From positions 1 to 26,691 of the forward strand of contig JADZBT010000136.1 of assembly GCA_020851915.1 (NCBI GenBank): DNA of 26,691 nt. The letters run 5' to 3'. Of this stretch, positions 8,964-17,480 are shown piece by piece. Below the pieces are notes generated by a model that was not told the DNA's origin, ran no database searches, and was given only the letters and a program-made list of their open reading frames with translations. The stretch is from Alphaproteobacteria bacterium. GTDB taxonomy: Bacteria > Pseudomonadota > Alphaproteobacteria > Rickettsiales > RI-342. A program made the translations under genes and the position numbers. How positions within the stretch are numbered: the first letter of the stretch is position 1; each line of letters begins with the position of its first letter.

Positions 8964-9080
8964 TGGGCAATAGGCACTAGGGATTAGGTGCTGGGCATTA
9001 GGATTTAGGGGTTCGGATGTGAAGGGGGCGGCGTTTTGGCAACAGGCAACAAACCCCTAACACCCAATTCCTAATTCCTA
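8964..9080. repeat. Inverted heptamer tandem array C (TRGGNNN family)
   Basis: tgggcaa taggcac tagggat taggtgc tgggcat taggatt taggggt (8964-9012); ggcaaca x2 (9038-9051); accccta acaccca attccta attccta (9053-9080). Confidence 0.85.
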
Positions 9081-10586
9081 GCTTGTTCCCACCCGCGCGC
9101 GGAAGCTGAGGGCTTCGGCGATGTGGGGCTTGCGGAGTTGTTCTGCTCCTTCGAGGTCGGCGATGCTCAGGGCGACCTTCAGTACGCGGTGCATGCCGCG
9201 CATGGAAAGGCGCATTTTCTCGGCGGCCTGCGTCATCAGGGCGCGGCCTTCCGCGTCGGGCGCGGCGTATTCCTGTACCTTCTCGCCCGAGAGATGGGCG
9301 TTGAGGCGGTAGGGGGTTTTGTGGAAGCGCGCCTGCTGCCGCATGCGTGCGGCGCGTACCCGCGCGGCCACGGCGGCGGAGCTCTCAGCGGCGGCGGGCG
9401 TGAACATTTCCGCTACCGGAACTTCCGGCACTTCGACATGCAGATCGATGCGGTCGAGCAGTGGGCCGGAGAGGCGCGACTGATATTCGGACGCGCATTT
9501 GGGTGCGCGTCCGCAGCCGCGCCCGGCATCGCTGATATAGCCGCAGCGGCAGGGGTTCATTGCCGCCACCAGCTGGAAACGCGCGGGATATTCCACATGC
9601 GCCTGCGCGCGCGCTACCGCGACCGTGCCGGTCTCGATGGGCTGGCGCAGGGCTTCGAGCACCGCGCGCGGGAACTCCGGCAACTCATCGAGGAACAGCA
9701 CGCCGTTATGCGCGAGAGATATTTCCCCCGGCTTGGGGCGCTTGCCGCCACCCACCATGGCGGGCGTGGAGGTGGAATGATGCGGGTCGCGGTAGGGACG
9801 CGATGCACAGAGCTTTCCCGCCGTGAGCTTGCCCGCGACGCTCGCTATCATGCTGGTTTCCAGTATCTCCTCGGACGAGAGCGGCGGCAGGATGCCGGGC
9901 AGGCAGGAGGCCAGCAGCGATTTTCCCGAGCCGGGCGGGCCGGACATCAGCAGGTTGTGACCGCCTGCGGCGGCGATCTCCAAGGCGCGGCGTGCGGTTT
10001 CCTGTCCACGTATATCGGCGAGGTCGCGGTAGTGCGCGACGGCGGGTTCATCCACGCGGACGGGCGGCGAGAGCAGTTGCGTGCCACGGAAATGATTGAG
10101 CAGCGCCAGCAATGTGGCGGGGGCCAGTATGTCGAGGTTCCCGGCCCAGCAGGCCTCGCTGCCGTTCTCTGCCGGGCAGAGGATGCCGCGCCCGCGCTCC
10201 GCCGCGCCCATCGCGGCCGGTAGCACGCCCGCCACCGGCAGCAACGCGCCGTCGAGGGCCAGTTCGCCCAGCACGATATAGGGCGCGACCATGTCCTCGG
10301 GAACCACGCCCATCGCCATCAGGATGCCCAGCGCGATGGGCAGGTCGAAATGGGAGCCTTCCTTCTGCAGGTCGGCGGGCGAGAGGTTGACGGTGATGCG
10401 CTTGGCCGGAAGCGCCAGCCCCATCGCGGTGAGCGCGGCGCGCACCCGCTCGCGCGATTCGCCCACCGCCTTATCGGGAAGCCCCACGACCATGAAAGCC
10501 GGCAGGCCGCTGCCTATCTGCACCTGCACGTCGATGGGCGTGACCTCAAGGCCCTGGAACGTGACGGTGCTGACATGGGCGACCAT
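9078..10586 (-). CDS. comM: YifB/ComM family Mg-chelatase-like AAA+ ATPase
   Basis: VGLPDKAVGESRERV, TVNLSPADLQKEGSHFDLPIA, Walker A GPPGSGKS, GEISLAHNGVLFLDE, AMNPCRCG, SGPLLDRID. Confidence 0.95.
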   Translation of the reverse strand: MVAHVSTVTFQGLEVTPIDVQVQIGSGLPAFMVVGLPDKAVGESRERVRAALTAMGLALPAKRITVNLSPADLQKEGSHFDLPIALGILMAMGVVPEDMVAPYIVLGELALDGALLPVAGVLPAAMGAAERGRGILCPAENGSEACWAGNLDILAPATLLALLNHFRGTQLLSPPVRVDEPAVAHYRDLADIRGQETARRALEIAAAGGHNLLMSGPPGSGKSLLASCLPGILPPLSSEEILETSMIASVAGKLTAGKLCASRPYRDPHHSTSTPAMVGGGKRPKPGEISLAHNGVLFLDELPEFPRAVLEALRQPIETGTVAVARAQAHVEYPARFQLVAAMNPCRCGYISDAGRGCGRAPKCASEYQSRLSGPLLDRIDLHVEVPEVPVAEMFTPAAAESSAAVAARVRAARMRQQARFHKTPYRLNAHLSGEKVQEYAAPDAEGRALMTQAAEKMRLSMRGMHRVLKVALSIADLEGAEQLRKPHIAEALSFRARVGTS

Positions 10587-10593
10587 GGAAGCC

Positions 10594-11004
10594 CTATTTC
10601 TTCTTCAGCAGGTCGCGGATCTCTTCCAGCAGTTGTTCGGAACGGGGCGGGGCGGGCGGAGGAGCTGCTTCCTGCGTGCGGCGGAAGCGGTTGGCCTGCT
10701 TCACCAGCAGGAATACGGCGAAGGACACGATCAGGAAATTGATGACCGTGTTGAGGAATATCCCGTAATTGATGGTGGCGGCGCCTGCGGCCTTCGCGGC
10801 GGCGAGCGAGGCGTGTTCTTCGCCCGACAGGTCGAGGAAGAAGCCGGAGAAGTCGATGCCGCCCATGATCTTCCCGATCGGGGGCATGATGATGTCGGCC
10901 ACCAGCGAATTGACGATGCCGGTGAAGGCCGTGCCGATGATGATACCCACCGCGAGATCCAGCACGTTGCCGCGCGAGATGAACTCCTTGAACTCTTTCA
11001 GCAT
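10594..11004 (-). CDS. mscL: Large-conductance mechanosensitive channel
   Basis: MLKEFKEFISRGNVLDLAVGIIIG, YGIFLNTVINFLIV, LLEEIRDLL; SD GGGGAG. Confidence 0.98.
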   Translation of the reverse strand: MLKEFKEFISRGNVLDLAVGIIIGTAFTGIVNSLVADIIMPPIGKIMGGIDFSGFFLDLSGEEHASLAAAKAAGAATINYGIFLNTVINFLIVSFAVFLLVKQANRFRRTQEAAPPPAPPRSEQLLEEIRDLLKKK

Positions 11005-11080
11005 ATGCTCCCCGTAATGATCGTTGGTCCCAGTGCAACCATGAATAGTGTGATTGCCCGGCGATGGCAAGGGAGGAGTC

Positions 11081-11213
11081 GGGGGTTGGTTACACCCACT
11101 ATCGCGCCAGCAGGCCCCTCACCCCGACCCTCTCCCTATGGGAGAGGGAGAAAAAGCCCCTTCTCCCATAGGGAGAAGGCGAGGGATGAGGGGCCTGATC
11201 TATCGGTGTAAAC
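11081..11213. repeat. BoxC/REP-like doublet, left copy, with conserved flanks
   Basis: Core 11113-11197: ggcccctcaccccgaccctctccc-tat-gggagaggg...ccccttctccc-ata-gggagaaggcgagggatgaggggcctg. Flanks match the 13157-13290 copy in inverted orientation. Confidence 0.92.
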
Positions 11214-11270
11214 GCCCAACATGCACAAAAACCACATATTCTCCCGAAAACTCTAGAATTCCGCATCGTC

Positions 11271-11286
11271 TTAACAAATTCTTAAC
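11271..11286 (+). promoter_or_regulatory. CtrA-type binding site
   Basis: Exact TTAA-N7-TTAAC (ttaa caaattc ttaac) upstream of the sensor kinase. Confidence 0.65.
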
Positions 11287-11366
11287 AATTCTGTGTAACA
11301 TAACATGAGGTGGGAATGCGCCGTGGCGCGTTCCTGAAAGTCATGGTCATAGCCGGGTTATGTAGC

Positions 11367-13097
11367 ATGGTGTTACCGCCATTACGCACAGACAGCCGCC
11401 AGCCGATGATACGCAAGCTGATCGCGTTCAGCTCGATTATCATGCTGCTGTTCTGCGTGATCGTGGCGTATCAGGCGTCGCGCGCTTACGAGACCGCGCT
11501 GCGTAACAGCGAGACCAGCGCCACCCGCCTCGCCCATTCGCTGGCGGGGCATGTCGAGCTTACGTTCCGCGCGGTGGATCTGTCGCTCAAGCGCGCGGCG
11601 GAGTACCTGCATCATTATCCGCCCGGCGATGTTCCGCCCTCGAAGGAGATCGAGGATAGCTTCCGCCTGTGGGTCGCCGACGCTCCTCAGACGGTCGCCA
11701 TGTACATCACCGACACCTACGGCAATATCGTGATGTCGGCGGCGCAGAAGGGCTTCACCCGGTTGTTTTCCGACGGGGCCTCGGTAGCATCACGCCCCTT
11801 CTTCCGCGATACCCGCGAGCAGGGCGATGTATTCCTCTACGTAGGGACACAGGAGTTCGACGGAGCGCGCTACGTCATTATGAGCCGCAAATACTATGAC
11901 CACGCGGATCGTTTCGCCGGAATCGTGTTCGCTGTTGTGAATCCCGCCTATTTCAGCCAGTTCTTCCGCGCCATCGAATCCGGCAAGAAGAGCACGATGC
12001 TGCTTACCGAATATGACGGCCATCCGCTGCTTTCCAGCCCCGGCAGCGACGATGCGGCCACGCGCACCGTGCAGGACGCCATTGCGAAGGCCGCAGGCAC
12101 GGGCATGCAGAACACCGTAACCGCCCGTACCACAGTGGATCATGCGCTGGTGGTCTATTCCTATAAACGCCTCTGGAACCTGCCGGTCTATGTCGCGGCG
12201 ATACTCGACGAGGAGGATTTCCTCAGCGGATGGAGCAAGGACCGCGTGAAGGACATCGGCTTCCTCGCCATCTTTGCCATCTTTGGCTCGGTGCTGTCCT
12301 TCTTCGCCTTCACGCTCACCAAGCAGATCAGCCGCATCGAGGAATCCGAGGCCGCCGCCGTGCTGGCCAGCCAGGCCAAGTCCGAATTCCTCGCCAATAT
12401 GAGCCACGAGCTGCGTACACCGCTCAATGCCATCATCGGCTTCTCGGAGATGATCGATAACGGCTATTTCGGGCCGCTCAACACCAAGCAGAAAGAACGC
12501 GTGCGCGACATCAACCTGTGCGGCAACCATCTGCTGCAACTCATCAACGATATTCTCGATTTCTCCAAGGGTGACGCCGGCAAGATGGAATTGCAGGAAG
12601 AGGTGTTCTCCGTCGCCGACGTAGCGGAGGAATGTATCCGCATTATGAGCGAGCGCGCCCGCATGCAGGGCGTCGATCTCCAGATGGATGTGGCGGTGAA
12701 CCTCCCGCCGCTGATGGCCGACAAACGTAAGATCCGCCAGCTGCTCCTCAACCTGCTCAGCAACGCGGTGAAATTCACCCCCGAGGGCGGCCGCGTCATC
12801 GTGCGCGCCCGTATAGGGACGAACCGTATGCTGGTCATCACGGTGGAGGATACCGGCATCGGTATCGCCAAGGAAGACATCCCCAAGGCGATGTCGGTGT
12901 TCGGGCAGGTGCATCGCCGCGAGCACCCGGAGGGCACGGGATTGGGCCTGCCGCTCTGCCGCATGTTCGCCGAACTCCATGGCGGACAGTTGCGTCTGGA
13001 GAGCGAACCCAATGTCGGCACGAAAGTGCATATCCTCCTGCCGCCCGGCAGGCTGGTCACGCGCAGCATCCCCGCACAGGCCGCGATGGCGGTGTGA
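11367..13097 (+). CDS. Membrane sensor histidine kinase (periplasmic Cache/PDC-like domain; PleC/DivJ-like transmitter)
   Basis: Two TM helices flank a ~270-aa periplasmic domain; H-box EFLANMSHELRTPLNAIIGFSE, N-box NLLSNAVKFT, DTGIGI, GTGLGL. Start is uncertain (11310, 11316, 11367 or 11406). Confidence 0.93.
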   Translation: MVLPPLRTDSRQPMIRKLIAFSSIIMLLFCVIVAYQASRAYETALRNSETSATRLAHSLAGHVELTFRAVDLSLKRAAEYLHHYPPGDVPPSKEIEDSFRLWVADAPQTVAMYITDTYGNIVMSAAQKGFTRLFSDGASVASRPFFRDTREQGDVFLYVGTQEFDGARYVIMSRKYYDHADRFAGIVFAVVNPAYFSQFFRAIESGKKSTMLLTEYDGHPLLSSPGSDDAATRTVQDAIAKAAGTGMQNTVTARTTVDHALVVYSYKRLWNLPVYVAAILDEEDFLSGWSKDRVKDIGFLAIFAIFGSVLSFFAFTLTKQISRIEESEAAAVLASQAKSEFLANMSHELRTPLNAIIGFSEMIDNGYFGPLNTKQKERVRDINLCGNHLLQLINDILDFSKGDAGKMELQEEVFSVADVAEECIRIMSERARMQGVDLQMDVAVNLPPLMADKRKIRQLLLNLLSNAVKFTPEGGRVIVRARIGTNRMLVITVEDTGIGIAKEDIPKAMSVFGQVHRREHPEGTGLGLPLCRMFAELHGGQLRLESEPNVGTKVHILLPPGRLVTRSIPAQAAMAV

Positions 13098-13156
13098 GGG
13101 AGAGTCGAGAGTCGTGGAGACAAGGCGTTTCCCGAGTCACGCGAGTTTCATTACGT

Positions 13157-13290
13157 GTTTACATCGATAGATCTGGCCCCTCACCCTAACCCTCTCCCTA
13201 TGGGAGAGGGGATAAGAAAGCCCCTTCTCCCATAGGGAGAAGGCGGGGGATGAGGGGCCTGCGGGCGCGGTGGTGCAGGAGCCAACCCCA
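13157..13290. repeat. BoxC/REP-like doublet, right copy, with conserved flanks
   Basis: Core 13175-13261 is nearly identical in direct orientation to 11113-11197. gtttacatcgatagatc (13157-13173) is the reverse complement of 11197-11213 at 16/17 positions. Confidence 0.92.
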
Positions 13291-13304
13291 AAGATCTCTA
13301 ACCA

Positions 13305-14093
13305 CTAAACCCCCAACACATCCCGCATGGAATAGAGGCCGGGGGCTTTGCCTTCGCTCCATAGGGCCGCGCGTAAAGCGCCTCGGGCGAAGATGGAGCG
13401 GTTGGAGGCCCTGTGTGTGAGTTCGATGCACTCGCCGTCGGCCATGAAGGCGACCGTGTGCTCGCCCACCGCATCACCCGCGCGCCGTACGGAGAAGCCG
13501 ATGGCGCCCGGCTTCCGGCGACCGGTACGGTCGAGTGCCATGACCTCATCGAACTCCACGCCACGGCCCTTCGCCGCCGCGCGCCCCAGCGCCAATGCCG
13601 TGCCTGAGGGGGCGTCGACCTTCTGGCGGTGATGGAGGTCGGAGATCTCGATGTCGAAGCTCTCGTTGAGGATGCCCGCCAGCTGCGCGGTGATGCCCAG
13701 CAGCAGGTTCACCCCGACGCTCATGTTGGGGGCGTGGACGATAGCGATCTTCTTGGCATGCGCGGCAAGCTGCTGTTCCTGCTCCGGCGTGAAGCCGGTC
13801 GTGCCGGTGATGAACGGTACGCCGATCTCCGCCGCGATGCCCGCGCAGGCGATGCTCATCGTGGGCTCAGTGAAATCCACCACCGCATCGCTCTTGGTCA
13901 CCAGCGGCAGCAGCTCGGAGGTGATGGCCACACCCAGCGGCGTACCGCCGAACAGCACGCCGATATCGCGATCCACCGCCGGATGCCCGCGACGCGTCAT
14001 GGCGGCCGCCACGGCGATCTCCGGATGCGCGAAGGCCTCGCGCACCACCGCCTGGCCCATGCGGCCCGTACAACCCGTAATACCGATTTTCAT
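13305..14093 (-). CDS. dapB: 4-hydroxy-tetrahydrodipicolinate reductase
   Basis: GCTGRMG, DFT, GTTG, APNMSVGVN, HHRQKVDAPSGTA, GEHTV, FARGALRAA. Confidence 0.98.
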   Translation of the reverse strand: MKIGITGCTGRMGQAVVREAFAHPEIAVAAAMTRRGHPAVDRDIGVLFGGTPLGVAITSELLPLVTKSDAVVDFTEPTMSIACAGIAAEIGVPFITGTTGFTPEQEQQLAAHAKKIAIVHAPNMSVGVNLLLGITAQLAGILNESFDIEISDLHHRQKVDAPSGTALALGRAAAKGRGVEFDEVMALDRTGRRKPGAIGFSVRRAGDAVGEHTVAFMADGECIELTHRASNRSIFARGALRAALWSEGKAPGLYSMRDVLGV

Positions 14094-14107: not shown

Positions 14108-14181
14108 TAGAGATTAGAAGCTAGAAATTAGATGATAGAACCATACTATTCTAATTTCCAATTTCCAATTTCTAAATTCTA
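14108..14181. repeat. Inverted heptamer tandem array D (TAGAAAT family)
   Basis: tagagat tagaagc tagaaat tagatga tagaacc (14108-14142), 4-nt loop, tattcta atttcca atttcca atttcta aattcta (14147-14181). Confidence 0.92.
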
Positions 14182-15321
14182 CTCGCGCAGGTCGTCCCAG
14201 ATCTCTTTCACCTTGCTGAAGAATCCTTCGGATTCGGGGCTGGTCTTTTCGGAGAGCGTCTTGTCGAGCTGCTTGAGGAGGTCTTTCTGTTCCTTGGAGA
14301 GATGCACGGGCGTTTCCACCGTCGCATGCACATACATGTCGCCGCGCATGGTGGAGCGGATCACGCTCATGCCCTTGCCCTTGAGGCGGAAACGGTTGCC
14401 GGTCTGCGTGCCCGCCGGGATGGAGAGCTTGGTGCGCGTGCCGTCGATGGTGGGAACCTCGATGCTGCCGCCCAGCGCCGCCGTCGTCATGCGGATGGGC
14501 ACATGGCAATGGATGTCCGCGCCGTCGCGCCGGAACAGCGGGTGCGACTGGACCGAGAGGAAGATATAGAGGTCGCCGGCGGGGCCGTTCATGCTGCCCG
14601 CCTCGCCCTCGCCCGCGAGCCGGATGCGCGTGCCTTCCTCGACGCCCGCCGGGATGGTGACTGCCAGCGTCTTCTGCTTGCGGATGCGGCCGCTGCCGCC
14701 GCATTTGCGGCAGGGATCCTTGATGATCTGCCCACGGCCCTGACAGGACGCGCAGGCGCGCTCCATGGTGAAGAATCCTTGCTGACTGCGAACCTTTCCG
14801 GCTCCGTGACAAGTGGGGCATTCCTCGGGCTTGGTGTCTTTGCCCGCGCCCGTGCCGAGGCAGACCTCGCAGTTGACGGCGGTCGCCAGCGTGACGTTCT
14901 CCTGCTTGCCACGGAAGGCTTCTTCCAGCGATATTTCGAGATTGTAGCGCAGGTCGGAGCCGCGCCCCGCGCCGCCGCGCCCACGGCCCCGTGCGCCGCC
15001 GCCGCCGCCCATAAAATCGCCGAACAGGTCATCGAAGATGTCGGAGAAATTACCACGGAATTCGAACCCGCCCGCGCCGCCGCCGCCCATGCCACCTTCG
15101 AACGCCTGATGGCCGTAATGGTCATAGGCCGCGCGCTTCTGCTGGTCCTTCAGCACGTCGTAGGCTTCACTGATCTCTTTGAATTTCTGCTCGGCTTCCT
15201 TGTCGTCGGGATTGCGGTCGGGATGGTATTTCATTGCGAGCGCGCGGTAGGCCTTCTTCAACTCCGCCTCGTCCGCCCCACGCTGCACGCCCAGCACTTC
15301 GTAATAATCTTTTTTCGACAT
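14179..15321 (-). CDS. dnaJ: Molecular chaperone DnaJ
   Basis: J domain with HPD, G/F-rich region, four CxxCxGxG repeats, [13 protein letters not shown]. Confidence 0.99.
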
Positions 15322-15341
15322 GTCTTGCCTGTTCTACACAA

Positions 15342-15373
15342 TGAAGCCCTCATCCCGGAAGATGAAGGCTTCA
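15342..15373. terminator. Hairpin in the dnaK-dnaJ spacer (possible attenuator or processing stem)
   Basis: tgaagcc-ctcatc-ccggaa-gatgaa-ggcttca; only a weak U-tract on the minus strand. Confidence 0.4.
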
Positions 15374-15388
15374 ACATGCGGTTAAAGA

Positions 15389-15411
15389 CCCTCTCCCCTT
15401 GTGGGAGAGGG
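15389..15411. repeat. Isolated BoxC/REP-like palindrome
   Basis: ccctctccc-cttgt-gggagaggg, the same stem as the cores at 11113 and 13175. Confidence 0.75.
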
Positions 15412-15417
15412 ACGACA

Positions 15418-17328
<1,911 letters not shown>

Positions 17329-17363
17329 GATTTCCTAGTCCCTTTGCTATTACCTTACAGGCT

Positions 17364-17391
17364 ATATAGGCAAGAATTCGCCCAATACAAC
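17364..17391 (-). promoter_or_regulatory. Putative sigma32 (RpoH) promoter of dnaKJ
   Basis: Minus strand reads GTTG-N17-CCTATAT, against the alphaproteobacterial RpoH consensus CTTG-N17/18-CYTATNT. Confidence 0.5.
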
Positions 17392-17480
17392 CTTTTTGAC
17401 CAGATTTTTTAACAAATCTGTAACCTGCGGCTGCTAGCCTTGTTCCCGTGGAAATCCGCATATAGGGCAGGAACCAGAAC

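What the first reader, a model, noticed from the sequence alone, without database searches (positions are those of the whole stretch)
11081..13290. Sensor kinase bracketed by ~130-bp repeats with direct cores but inverted flanks
Seen: the REP-doublet cores (11113-11197 and 13175-13261) are nearly identical in the same orientation. The inner flanks (gatctatcggtgtaaac 11197-11213; gtttacatcgatagatc 13157-13173) are 16/17 inverted repeats, and the outer flanks (11081-11115; 13257-13290) also align only as inverted repeats (gcctgc.ggcgcg.t.gtg...ccaacccc). One core has therefore flipped relative to its flanks, or cores insert either way into a conserved target. The 2.2-kb unit resembles a REP-bounded, transposase-free cassette carrying the kinase; no target-site duplication is evident. 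Established: REP/REPIN elements are mobilised in trans by HUH (RAYT) transposases, and E. coli BoxC has a similar CCCTCTCCC stem.
Basis: partly seen in the sequence, partly recalled or inferred. Interest (0 to 1): 0.68.

Follow-up and report, generated by a model that had tools for sequence, protein, structure and literature searches.

The report
Resident kinase between two BoxC-pair repeats
The sensor kinase is an old resident gene, and the two repeats beside it are separate copies of a dispersed repeat built from a pair of "BoxC/triplex" motifs, whose middle part occurs in either orientation relative to its arms all over this genome.

Summary
The two 85/87-bp cores are direct repeats (81/87 identical), while their flanks match only as inverted repeats (inner flank 16/17).

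The cassette reading fails. Kinase orthologues lie in the same comM/chlI–kinase–dapB–dnaJ order and orientation in distant relatives that have no repeats there. About 1.3 such close repeat pairs are expected by chance in this genome.

Each core half is a BoxC / PIT / TMECO intrastrand-triplex motif (Holder 2015, PMC4666352); one half is 32/34 identical to E. coli type A. The core is an inverted pair of two motif types, alpha and beta.

The 1.47-Mb MAG holds 31 such doublets and 96 motif units. Every doublet carries short arms at a fixed register, usually one "G-type" and one "B-type". The G arm sits on the alpha side in 13 copies, on the beta side in 12, and 6 are ambiguous. The core-versus-flank discordance is therefore a family-wide two-isomer ("flip/flop") property. 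The kinase simply has one isomer on each side.

No RAYT, TnpB, IS110 or DUF559 gene was found in the 81.5%-complete MAG. In relatives, these motifs co-occur with, and bracket, DUF559 nuclease genes in the same configuration. This scan has met BoxC–DUF559 pairings before on other DNA.

How the two isomers arise is inferred, not shown.

The parts
11076..11233 (-). Left repeat element, isomer II. Read in arm orientation it lies on the minus strand. On the plus strand the order is: reverse-complemented B arm (about 11081-11112), core(+) 11113-11197, then reverse-complemented A/G arm 11198-11213, with weaker family similarity out to about 11233. It lies in the divergent mscL/kinase intergenic region.
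   Evidence: (A-arm HMM 25.0 bits on the minus strand at 11219-11196; B arm 8.9 bits).
11113..11148 (+). Alpha unit of the left core. Its reverse complement fits the TMECO pattern with loop TCG ('type B').
   Evidence: 30/34 to TMECO no. 20, 32/36 to no. 12; pattern from PMC4666352.
11159..11197 (+). Beta unit of the left core: CCTTCTCCC-ata-GGGAGAAGG-cga-GGGATGAGGGGCC. It is a TM variant with matching changes in all three blocks.
   Evidence: read directly from the sequence.
11316..13097 (+). Sensor histidine kinase (dCache_1, HisKA, HATPase_c; 593 aa from the ATG at 11316, or 595 aa from the GTG at 11310). It is a resident, vertically inherited gene and not cargo.
13142..13296 (+). Right repeat element, isomer I: A/G arm (13157-13173, with weaker similarity from about 13142), core(+) 13175-13261, and B arm 13262 to about 13290/13296. 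It lies between the convergent 3' ends of the kinase and dapB.
   Evidence: (A-arm HMM 20.2 bits on the plus strand at 13152-13173; B arm 5.5 bits).
13175..13210 (+). Alpha unit of the right core. Its reverse complement is CCCTCTCCC-ata-GGGAGAGGG-tta-GGGTGAGGGG, which is TMECO 'type A'.
   Evidence: 32/34 to E. coli TMECO no. 17; matches in 4332 of 5426 E. coli genomes.
13223..13261 (+). Beta unit of the right core.
10594..11005 (-). mscL. It lies between comM/chlI and the kinase here but was not seen next to the kinase in the relatives searched. It is context, not part of the repeat.
13305..14093 (-). dapB, the conserved downstream neighbour of the kinase. It is followed by dnaJ (14179-15321, minus) and dnaK (15418-17328, minus).

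Best explanation
The kinase is an ordinary chromosomal gene in its ancestral place. On each side an independent copy of a dispersed, non-coding, hairpin-forming repeat has settled in the intergenic DNA.

Repeat anatomy (shown): the unit is arm - core - arm. It is at least about 111 bp in all copies and about 165 bp in a 12-13-copy subfamily that includes both copies here. The 85-bp core is an inverted pair of two different BoxC/PIT/TMECO intrastrand-triplex motifs, alpha and beta, with the third blocks outermost. It folds into a stem of about 38 bp.

Two isomers (shown): the family exists as two isomers at about 1:1. The purine-rich 'G/A' arm is next to alpha in isomer I and next to beta in isomer II. 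The right copy is isomer I in forward arm orientation. The left copy is isomer II in reverse arm orientation. That combination gives direct cores with inverted flanks.

Mechanism (inferred, not shown): the isomers arise by repeated inversion of the core between its perfect 9-11-bp terminal inverted repeats, (CA)GGCCCCTCA...TGAGGGGCC(TG). This could happen in place or while the element is copied through a hairpin intermediate.

Origin (inferred): the doublet is a gene-less miniature of the TM - DUF559 nuclease - TM cassettes seen in relatives, and is spread or maintained in trans by such an enzyme.
For: Synteny:
- Orthologues (42-56% identity) lie divergent from comM/chlI in 8 of 12 relatives, with dapB(-) downstream in L006 and L031 (dnaJ(-) also follows in L031). 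Orientation is the same as here, and these relatives have no repeats there.
- Kinase GC3 is 0.81, like its neighbours.

Dispersed family:
- 31 full doublets and 96 TM units occur in 1.47 Mb.
- 1.3 doublet pairs within 2.06 kb are expected by chance and 2 are seen.

Core identity:
- All 31 cores keep strict alpha-loop-beta polarity.
- Alpha fits the published TMECO pattern, is 32/34 identical to E. coli type A, and hits 4332 E. coli genomes.

Arms are part of the element:
- Positions -13 to -1 are conserved at a fixed register in all 61 arms, and also in the 38 arms of copies without the strong A arm (p from 1e-4 to 1e-15).
- The 24-nt A-arm HMM hits 12 sites, every one next to a core.
- No empty arm-arm site was found.
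- 25 of 31 copies carry one G-type and one B-type arm.

Two isomers:
- A arm on the alpha side in 7 copies and on the beta side in 5.
- With all arms classified: 13: 12: 6 ambiguous.
- Both core subtypes occur in both isomers.

Link to DUF559:
- 9 of 10 relatives with TM hits have DUF559, against 2 of 20 without.
- Four DUF559 genes have a TM hit within 150 bp or less.
- The G001 cassette reads third-Y-loop-R / DUF559 / Y-loop-R-third, which is the same configuration as the core here.
Against: - No inversion was observed directly. The organism is at about 2x depth in the public runs, which are kept only as contigs; the few exact pieces show the reference orientation.
- The arm tree has no resolved branches, so a single ancient inversion is not excluded.
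- Core subtype correlates partly with isomer (Fisher p = 0.03), as expected if orientation is mostly inherited.
- Arm typing of the 19 copies without the strong A arm rests on mismatch counts to short consensus strings that I chose.
- No DUF559, RAYT, TnpB or IS110 gene was found in this MAG, so no mobilising enzyme is in hand. The MAG is only 81.5% complete and breaks at repeats.
- There are no close relatives (nearest kinase 56% identical), so no empty or occupied orthologous sites could be compared.
Confidence: 0.8

Rival explanations
1. The 2.2-kb segment (repeat - kinase - repeat) is a composite, transposase-free mobile cassette that brought the kinase to this site, or can invert or excise it.
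For: The two flanking elements are inverted with respect to their arms and lie only 2.06 kb apart. In relatives, BoxC-type repeats do bracket a gene, DUF559.
Against: - The kinase has the same neighbours and orientation in distant relatives without repeats.
- Thousands of about 50%-identical orthologues indicate vertical descent.
- Composition is like the neighbours.
- Each flanking element is a complete doublet, not a half-end.
- There is no TSD.
- A repeat pair this close is expected by chance about 1.3 times in this genome.
Confidence: 0.03
2. The 85-bp core is the only mobile unit. It inserts in either orientation into a pre-existing, nearly palindromic 24-26-bp target (the arms).
For: - The core is far better conserved (about 90-99%) than the arms.
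- The arms are a degenerate inverted repeat ending in CA|TG.
- The orientation ratio is about 1:1.
- Other inserts lie between the same arm types: C35 has alpha-X-alpha and C94 has a collapsed palindrome.
Against: - No unoccupied arm-arm site was found in 1.47 Mb with either an HMM or fuzzy patterns.
- 25 of 31 copies pair one G-type with one B-type arm. This looks like an inherited element structure rather than independent targets.
- In the A subfamily, similarity runs about 33 and 45 nt beyond the core.
Confidence: 0.2
3. One ancient inversion produced two master elements that then amplified separately. The mixing of core subtypes between isomers comes from later gene conversion among copies.
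For: Core subtype is partly tied to isomer: CCCCGA is 1 in I and 6 in II, while CCCTRR is 12 in I and 6 in II (p = 0.03). The arm tree does not exclude a single origin.
Against: Both subtypes occur in both isomers. Arms of the two isomers are interleaved in the unresolved tree, and label changes are no fewer than for shuffled labels (4 against 4.1).
Confidence: 0.3
4. Assembly artefact: a metagenome contig wrongly joined at repeats, so that the kinase only appears to lie between them.
For: The genome is a fragmented MAG (191 contigs), and repeats of this family often lie near contig ends.
Against: The gene order matches relatives. Independent 151-nt pieces from two other samples match 11087-11237 and 11135-11285 exactly, across the junction between the left repeat and its unique flank.
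Confidence: 0.02

Closest known systems
BoxC / PIT elements / TMECO intrastrand-triplex motifs (Holder et al. 2015, NAR 43:10126, PMC4666352; the earlier Bachellier and Hoyne & Maher work is cited as in that paper)
   Same: - Alpha fits the published pattern CCCTCNCCC-N3-6-GGGNGAGGG-N3-GGGNGAGGG exactly and is 32/34 identical to E. coli type A.
- The copies are intergenic and have no known transposase.
- The motifs occur as inverted pairs that always combine two different motif types. In E. coli this is A + B at all 5 paired loci.
   Different: - Here the pair is a tight 85-bp unit with the third blocks outermost; by the coordinates in the paper's Table 1, the E. coli pairs have them innermost.
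- It is amplified to 31 copies in 1.47 Mb.
- It carries conserved arms and exists as two orientation isomers.
- Beta is a variant with matched changes in all three blocks.
- None of these points is described in the paper as far as I read it.
REPINs mobilised by RAYT transposases (Bertels & Rainey 2011, PMC3116915, PMC3337134)
   Same: - Two inverted short palindromic units form a long hairpin.
- Doublets are better conserved than singlets.
- The collapsed palindromic singlet at C94 resembles their 'long palindromic REP singlets'.
- Their GI REPINs also occur in two configurations, TT-AA and AA-TT.
   Different: - No RAYT (PF01797) was found in the MAG, and RAYT presence in relatives does not track the repeat.
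- There is no consistent GTAG/CGTC tag.
- Here the whole core flips relative to the arms, rather than a new doublet forming from neighbouring doublets.
TM/BoxC-bracketed DUF559 (Vsr-like) nuclease cassettes: earlier findings of this scan (e1-051545, e1-2825446, e1-5260705), not a published family to my knowledge
   Same: The configuration is the same: third-Y-loop-R ... Y-loop-R-third. In G001 it encloses DUF559 and here it encloses a spacer of about 10 nt. TM repeats and DUF559 co-occur in 9 of 10 relatives.
   Different: No DUF559 gene or fragment was found in this MAG. An enzyme-repeat relationship is untested anywhere.
Correia repeat-enclosed elements of Neisseria, and flip/flop hairpin isomers of parvovirus and poxvirus termini (recalled from memory, not checked here)
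   Same: In both, small elements or termini exist in alternative combinations of end variants and inner orientation. In flip/flop, an imperfect palindrome is found in both orientations at about 1:1 relative to unique flanking sequence.
   Different: There is no sequence relationship. Flip/flop arises at the ends of linear replicons through hairpin transfer by an HUH nickase, and nothing of that kind is shown here.

Membership tests
BoxC / PIT / TMECO triplex motif | Three 9-nt blocks, CCCTCNCCC - N3-6 - GGGNGAGGG - N3 - GGGNGAGGG (Holder 2015) | tested here: met
   The reverse complements of alpha at both copies fit the pattern exactly. Beta fits with one change per block; the three changes stay mutually compatible: C>T, G>A, G>A (read from the sequence).
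BoxC / PIT / TMECO triplex motif | Sequence likeness to the E. coli copies | tested here: met
   32/34 to TMECO no. 17. BLASTN matches at mostly 90-95% identity in 4332 of 5426 E. coli genomes, in unannotated DNA.
BoxC / PIT / TMECO triplex motif | Intergenic, with multiple dispersed copies, some as inverted pairs of two types | tested here: met
   96 units and 31 alpha/beta pairs; none of 31 doublets lies inside a called gene apart from 2 doubtful calls.
BoxC / PIT / TMECO triplex motif | Forms an intrastrand triplex | not testable with these tools
   Only duplex hairpin folding could be computed. In the paper, the triplex was shown in vitro for single strands but not in vivo.
REPIN-RAYT system | Doublet of inverted REPs that folds as a hairpin | tested here: met
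   Stem of about 38 bp; DNA folding energies of -38 to -45 kcal/mol with z-scores of -5 to -7.4.
REPIN-RAYT system | A cognate RAYT (Y1/HUH, PF01797) gene in the genome | tested here: not met
   No match in the MAG, which is 81.5% complete. Among relatives, RAYT/IS200-type hits (7 genomes) do not track the repeat.
REPIN-RAYT system | Conserved GTAG or CGTC tag at the REP end (Di Nocera 2013, PMC3733652; title and abstract only) | tested here: not met
   The arms give GTA on the opposite strand at -13 to -11, but the fourth base is G in only 14 of 38 arms. The core ends are GGCC...
MITE (non-autonomous DDE-transposon derivative) | Terminal inverted repeats plus a target-site duplication and a related autonomous IS | tested here: not met
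   Degenerate 13-nt inverted arms are present. No TSD appears at the ends of similarity. No IS110, TnpB or IS200 genes were found. Other transposase families were not searched.
Gene-less derivative of a TM-DUF559-TM cassette (scan lead) | Same end configuration as DUF559 cassettes, and DUF559 present in the same genome | tested here: inconclusive
   The configuration is the same as in G001, and co-occurrence in relatives is 9/10 against 2/20. DUF559 was not found in this MAG by HMM or tblastn.

The most novel reading that the evidence does not exclude
The roughly 1:1 flip/flop of the triplex-motif pair relative to its arms is a footprint of how BoxC-type repeats are copied. In this reading, the element passes through a single-stranded fold-back (hairpin) intermediate that is nicked at the arm/core border by a partner nuclease (a DUF559 or Vsr-like enzyme, here missing from the assembly or lost). 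Each copying event then re-draws the core orientation, as hairpin transfer does at parvovirus termini. That would give the long-orphan BoxC/PIT/TM repeats both a replication mechanism and an enzyme.
Probability: 0.1. Interest if true: 0.75.

Novelty: new variant of a known kind. Interest (0 to 1): 0.35.

Why it matters
BoxC/PIT/TM repeats have been known since the 1990s and occur in hundreds of bacterial genomes. They still have no accepted function, origin or means of spread (PMC4666352).

This genome offers an unusually rich and tidy population: 96 units in 1.47 Mb. The motif pair is embedded in a larger arm-core-arm unit and occurs as two orientation isomers at about equal frequency. In related genomes, the same pair configuration encloses a DUF559 nuclease gene.

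Together these features give concrete handles on whether such repeats are copied as units, and by what:
- a defined inversion boundary of 9-11 bp;
- a conserved 13-nt arm;
- a candidate enzyme.

For annotating this locus the message is simple. The kinase is not mobile cargo.

Tried and rejected
1. Rfam scan of the region gave only sub-threshold miRNA-hairpin noise.
2. A one-way terminator role was considered because the beta hairpin is followed by a U-rich loop on the core's minus strand. It was rejected: neighbouring genes point at the alpha side in 22/31 cases and at the beta side in 17/27, so there is no polarity. There is only a general preference for 3' ends, at 39 of 58 sides.
3. A general palindromy test of the flanks by local alignment of 30-mers showed no excess over random (5.1 against 5.4). 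The arms became visible only in a fixed-register, position-by-position count. My earlier by-eye impression of long TIRs in all copies was therefore too generous.
4. A search for empty arm-arm target sites found only noise.
5. A tree of the arms, meant to count inversion events, was unresolved.
6. Public reads: the organism is at about 2x depth and only as contigs. They support the left junction but cannot test inversion heterogeneity or empty sites.
7. Looking for closer relatives in metagenome contigs and the 5.8-billion-protein collection gave a nearest kinase of 56% identity. No strain-level comparison was possible.
8. RAYT, TnpB, IS110 and DUF559 were all not found in the MAG.
9. Recombination between the two flanking copies cannot explain a flipped core. 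A crossover between inverted copies would invert the kinase, and the kinase has the ancestral orientation.
Full report
**1. What is at the site**

The window is the whole of contig C137 of a fragmented MAG: 1.47 Mb, 191 contigs, 81.5% complete. Genes around the finding, by Pfam:

| Gene | Coordinates | Strand |
|---|---|---|
| comM/chlI-like | 9078-10586 | - |
| mscL | 10594-11005 | - |
| sensor kinase (dCache_1-HisKA-HATPase_c) | 11316-13097 | + |
| dapB | 13305-14093 | - |
| dnaJ | 14179-15321 | - |
| dnaK | 15418-17328 | - |

The left repeat lies in the divergent mscL/kinase spacer. The right repeat lies between the convergent ends of the kinase and dapB.

**2.

- The cores (11113-11197 and 13175-13261) are 81/87 identical in direct alignment and 68/91 when one is inverted.
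- The inner flanks match 16/17 only as inverted repeats.
- The outer flanks match weakly as inverted repeats (21/32), but in the orientation predicted by a family consensus.
- The core is a quasi-palindrome that folds as one stem of about 38 bp. It still has an unambiguous polarity: genome-wide, each copy scores about 110-170 bits in one orientation and 34 bits or fewer in the other.

**3. The kinase is not cargo**

- Orthologues (42-56% identical) are found in 19 of 30 relatives at E of 1e-100 or better, and in thousands of uncultured Alphaproteobacteria.
- In 8 of 12 fetched loci the kinase lies divergent from comM/chlI. In L006 it is followed by dapB(-) and in L031 by dapB(-) and dnaJ(-), in the same order and orientation as here.
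- In L031 the kinase-dapB gap is 4 bp, so no repeat can be present.
- The kinase's GC3 (0.81) equals that of its neighbours.
- With 31 doublets in 1.47 Mb, about 1.3 neighbouring pairs within 2.06 kb are expected by chance; two are seen.
- An assembly error is unlikely. The gene order matches relatives, and exact 151-nt pieces from two other samples cross the junction between the left repeat and its unique flank.

**4. What the repeat is**

- All 31 full cores have the same polar structure: alpha = GGCCCCTCACCC-yrr-CCCTCTCCC-tat-GGGAGAGGG, then a loop of about 10 nt, then beta = CCTTCTCCC-ata-GGGAGAAGG-cgg-GGGATGAGGGGCC.
- The reverse complement of alpha fits the published pattern of the BoxC / PIT / TMECO intrastrand-triplex motif exactly (CCCTCNCCC-N3-6-GGGNGAGGG-N3-GGGNGAGGG; Holder et al. 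2015, PMC4666352).
- Alpha of the right copy is 32/34 identical to E. coli type A. Alpha of the left copy carries the type-B loop TCG.
- BLASTN of the right element finds the alpha part in 4332 of 5426 complete E. coli genomes.
- Beta differs from alpha by one change in each of the three blocks. The three changes keep Watson-Crick and third-strand compatibility (read from the sequence; this counts as one event, since all copies share it).
- In E. coli, five loci carry inverted pairs, and these always combine type A with type B. The pairing of two unlike motifs is the same here.
- The paper reports no transposase, no promoter or terminator activity, and raised local instability.

**5. The family in this genome**

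A pattern search finds 96 triplex-motif units:
- the 31 alpha/beta doublets;
- three wide alpha-X-alpha doublets with a 45-50-nt hairpin spacer (C2, C35, C139);
- single units, and a collapsed palindromic unit (C94);
- a second family of about 14 copies, CCCCCACCC-n-CCCTCCCCC-tgc-GGGGGAGGG, which includes window 22199-22233;
- three copies with a T-run tail.

The alpha-type unit occurs in 10 of 30 relatives from different families of the order. The arms described below were not matched in any of them.

**6. Arms**

- A 24-nt HMM of the inner flank (the 'A arm', gtGTTTACACCGATAGAyc) hits 12 sites in the genome. All 12 abut a core and none is empty.
- In this subfamily, similarity extends about 33 nt on the A side and about 45 nt on the other ('B') side. 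The unit is then about 165 bp, and no target duplication is visible at its ends.
- A simple local-alignment test did not detect arms in the other 19 copies.
- A fixed-register count did. Reading from outside towards the core, positions -13 to -1 follow T-A-C-n-G-A-n-A-n-A-n-C-A on both sides of the core. Single-position p-values run from 1e-4 to 1e-15, even after the 12 A-arm copies are removed.
- Arms are therefore part of every copy.
- They fall into a purine-rich G type (AyCGATAGAyCA or ACGGAnAGnnCA) and a B type (AyCGCACCsGCA). 25 of 31 doublets have one of each.

**7. Two isomers**

- The strong A arm lies on the alpha side in 7 copies and on the beta side in 5.
- With all arms typed, the G arm is on the alpha side in 13 copies, on the beta side in 12, and 6 are ambiguous.
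- The right copy at the kinase is isomer I in forward arm orientation. The left copy is isomer II in reverse arm orientation. This is exactly what produces direct cores with inverted flanks.
- The discordance is a property of the family, not an event at this locus.
- Core subtype (alpha loop CCCCGA versus CCCTRR) is partly tied to isomer (1/6 versus 12/6, Fisher p = 0.03), but both subtypes occur in both isomers.
- A tree of the arms is unresolved.

**8. How the isomers arise (inference)**

- The segment that differs between isomers is bounded by the perfect terminal inverted repeat (CA)GGCCCCTCA...TGAGGGGCC(TG).
- I favour repeated inversion between these ends, for three reasons: no empty arm-arm site exists; arms come in inherited G/B pairs; and isomers are mixed across core subtypes. 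The inversion could occur in place by template switching or short-repeat recombination, or during copying through a fold-back intermediate.
- Two-way insertion of the core into a palindromic arm target remains possible. So does a single old inversion followed by gene conversion.
- No direct evidence of inversion could be obtained. The organism is at about 2x depth in public runs, which are kept only as contigs.

**9. Partner enzyme**

- RAYT (PF01797), TnpB, IS110 and DUF559 were not found in the MAG. tblastn with six DUF559 proteins from relatives hit only translated repeats.
- Earlier notes of this scan proposed DUF559 nucleases as partners of BoxC repeats. I tested that lead in this order.
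- 9 of 10 relatives with the repeat have a strong DUF559 match, against 2 of 20 without. The relatives are not independent, so the p-value of 3.5e-5 overstates the case.
- Four DUF559 genes have a repeat hit within 150 bp.
- In G001 the gene lies between third-Y-loop-R and Y-loop-R-third, the same configuration as the doublet core here.
- The core thus looks like a gene-less miniature of such a cassette. Whether this genome still has the gene cannot be told from an 81.5%-complete assembly that breaks at repeats.

**10. Comparison and verdict**

- The units are members of the BoxC/PIT/TMECO kind. Pattern, sequence likeness and distribution were tested and met; triplex formation is not testable here.
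- The element works like a REPIN or MITE in form: a hairpin doublet, dispersed, with better-kept doublets and a collapsed singlet like those of Bertels & Rainey. It fails the REPIN membership test on the RAYT gene and the end tag, and the MITE test on the TSD and a cognate IS.
- The new points relative to what I could read are the tight alpha/beta pair with outer third blocks, the conserved arms, and the roughly 1:1 orientation isomers.
- The cassette interpretation is rejected. Interest is moderate: the locus itself is ordinary, but the family is a good system for the open question of how BoxC-type repeats spread.

Noticed in passing
window 14302-17412 (+): A 1036-aa ORF matches Pfam NAD-GH (PF10712, 616 bits) but lies antisense to dnaJ (14179-15321, minus) and dnaK (15418-17328, minus; HSP70, 927 bits). 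Its GC3 is 0.63 against about 0.81 for real genes. It is an antisense shadow ORF, not a gene.
   Followed up: yes
window 22199-22233 and about 13 other sites (e.g. C10 3788, C35 182, C93 2264, C140 886, C146 1529): A second triplex-motif family, CCCCCACCC-yrr-CCCTCCCCC-tgc-GGGGGAGGG, occurs mostly as single units, often preceded by ATG/CATG and by a CTATCGCGC-like (B-arm-like) stretch.
   Followed up: partly
G000 C2 6767-6871, C35 1874-1988, C139 1171-1273: Wide alpha-X-alpha doublets: two alpha units in inverted orientation around a related 45-50-nt GC-rich hairpin spacer (aagccgcc...). They have the same arm types as the alpha/beta doublets; C35 has a strong A arm.
   Followed up: no
G000 C94 1176-1226: A collapsed palindromic unit (third-Y-loop-R-third') lies between a G-type and a B-type arm. 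It looks like a doublet that lost its centre, as in the 'long palindromic REP singlets' of Bertels & Rainey and the partial deletions noted by Holder et al.
   Followed up: no
G000 C2 3098-3189: An isomer-II copy has a 33-nt hairpin-forming insert (cttgcctcggcgaagctccgaaggagcgaagacg) inside the third block of alpha. This is a nested insertion into the repeat.
   Followed up: no
window 10594-11005: mscL lies between comM/chlI and the kinase, 8 bp from comM. In the 8 relatives with comM next to the kinase, no mscL was detected between them. mscL is therefore the lineage-specific newcomer at this locus, not the kinase.
   Followed up: partly
L033 (G016 C14), L034 (G002 C1), L036 (G020 C2), also G009 C234 and G011 C1: DUF559 domains in relatives lie inside very long open frames (980-1467 aa) with proline/glycine-rich translated repeats on both sides. 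These look like in-frame cassette insertions into large host genes, as earlier scan notes reported for leuS and ileS.
   Followed up: no
G022 (relative, complete 1.9-Mb genome): At least 99 IS200/IS605-type Y1 transposase matches occur in a 1.9-Mb genome, which is an extreme load. This genome has no hit to the repeat studied here.
   Followed up: no
G000 C10, about 10940-10990 (beside the isomer-II copy at 11012-11113): An 8-nt tandem repeat, (agactctt) x 4-5, directly abuts the B-arm side of a repeat copy.
   Followed up: no
public runs X1-X4 laid on window 13178-13212 and 11104-11204: The alpha unit alone reaches summed contig depths of 57-409 in wastewater, biofilm and sludge metagenomes where this organism is at about 2x depth. 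The motif is therefore carried by many other community members.
   Followed up: no
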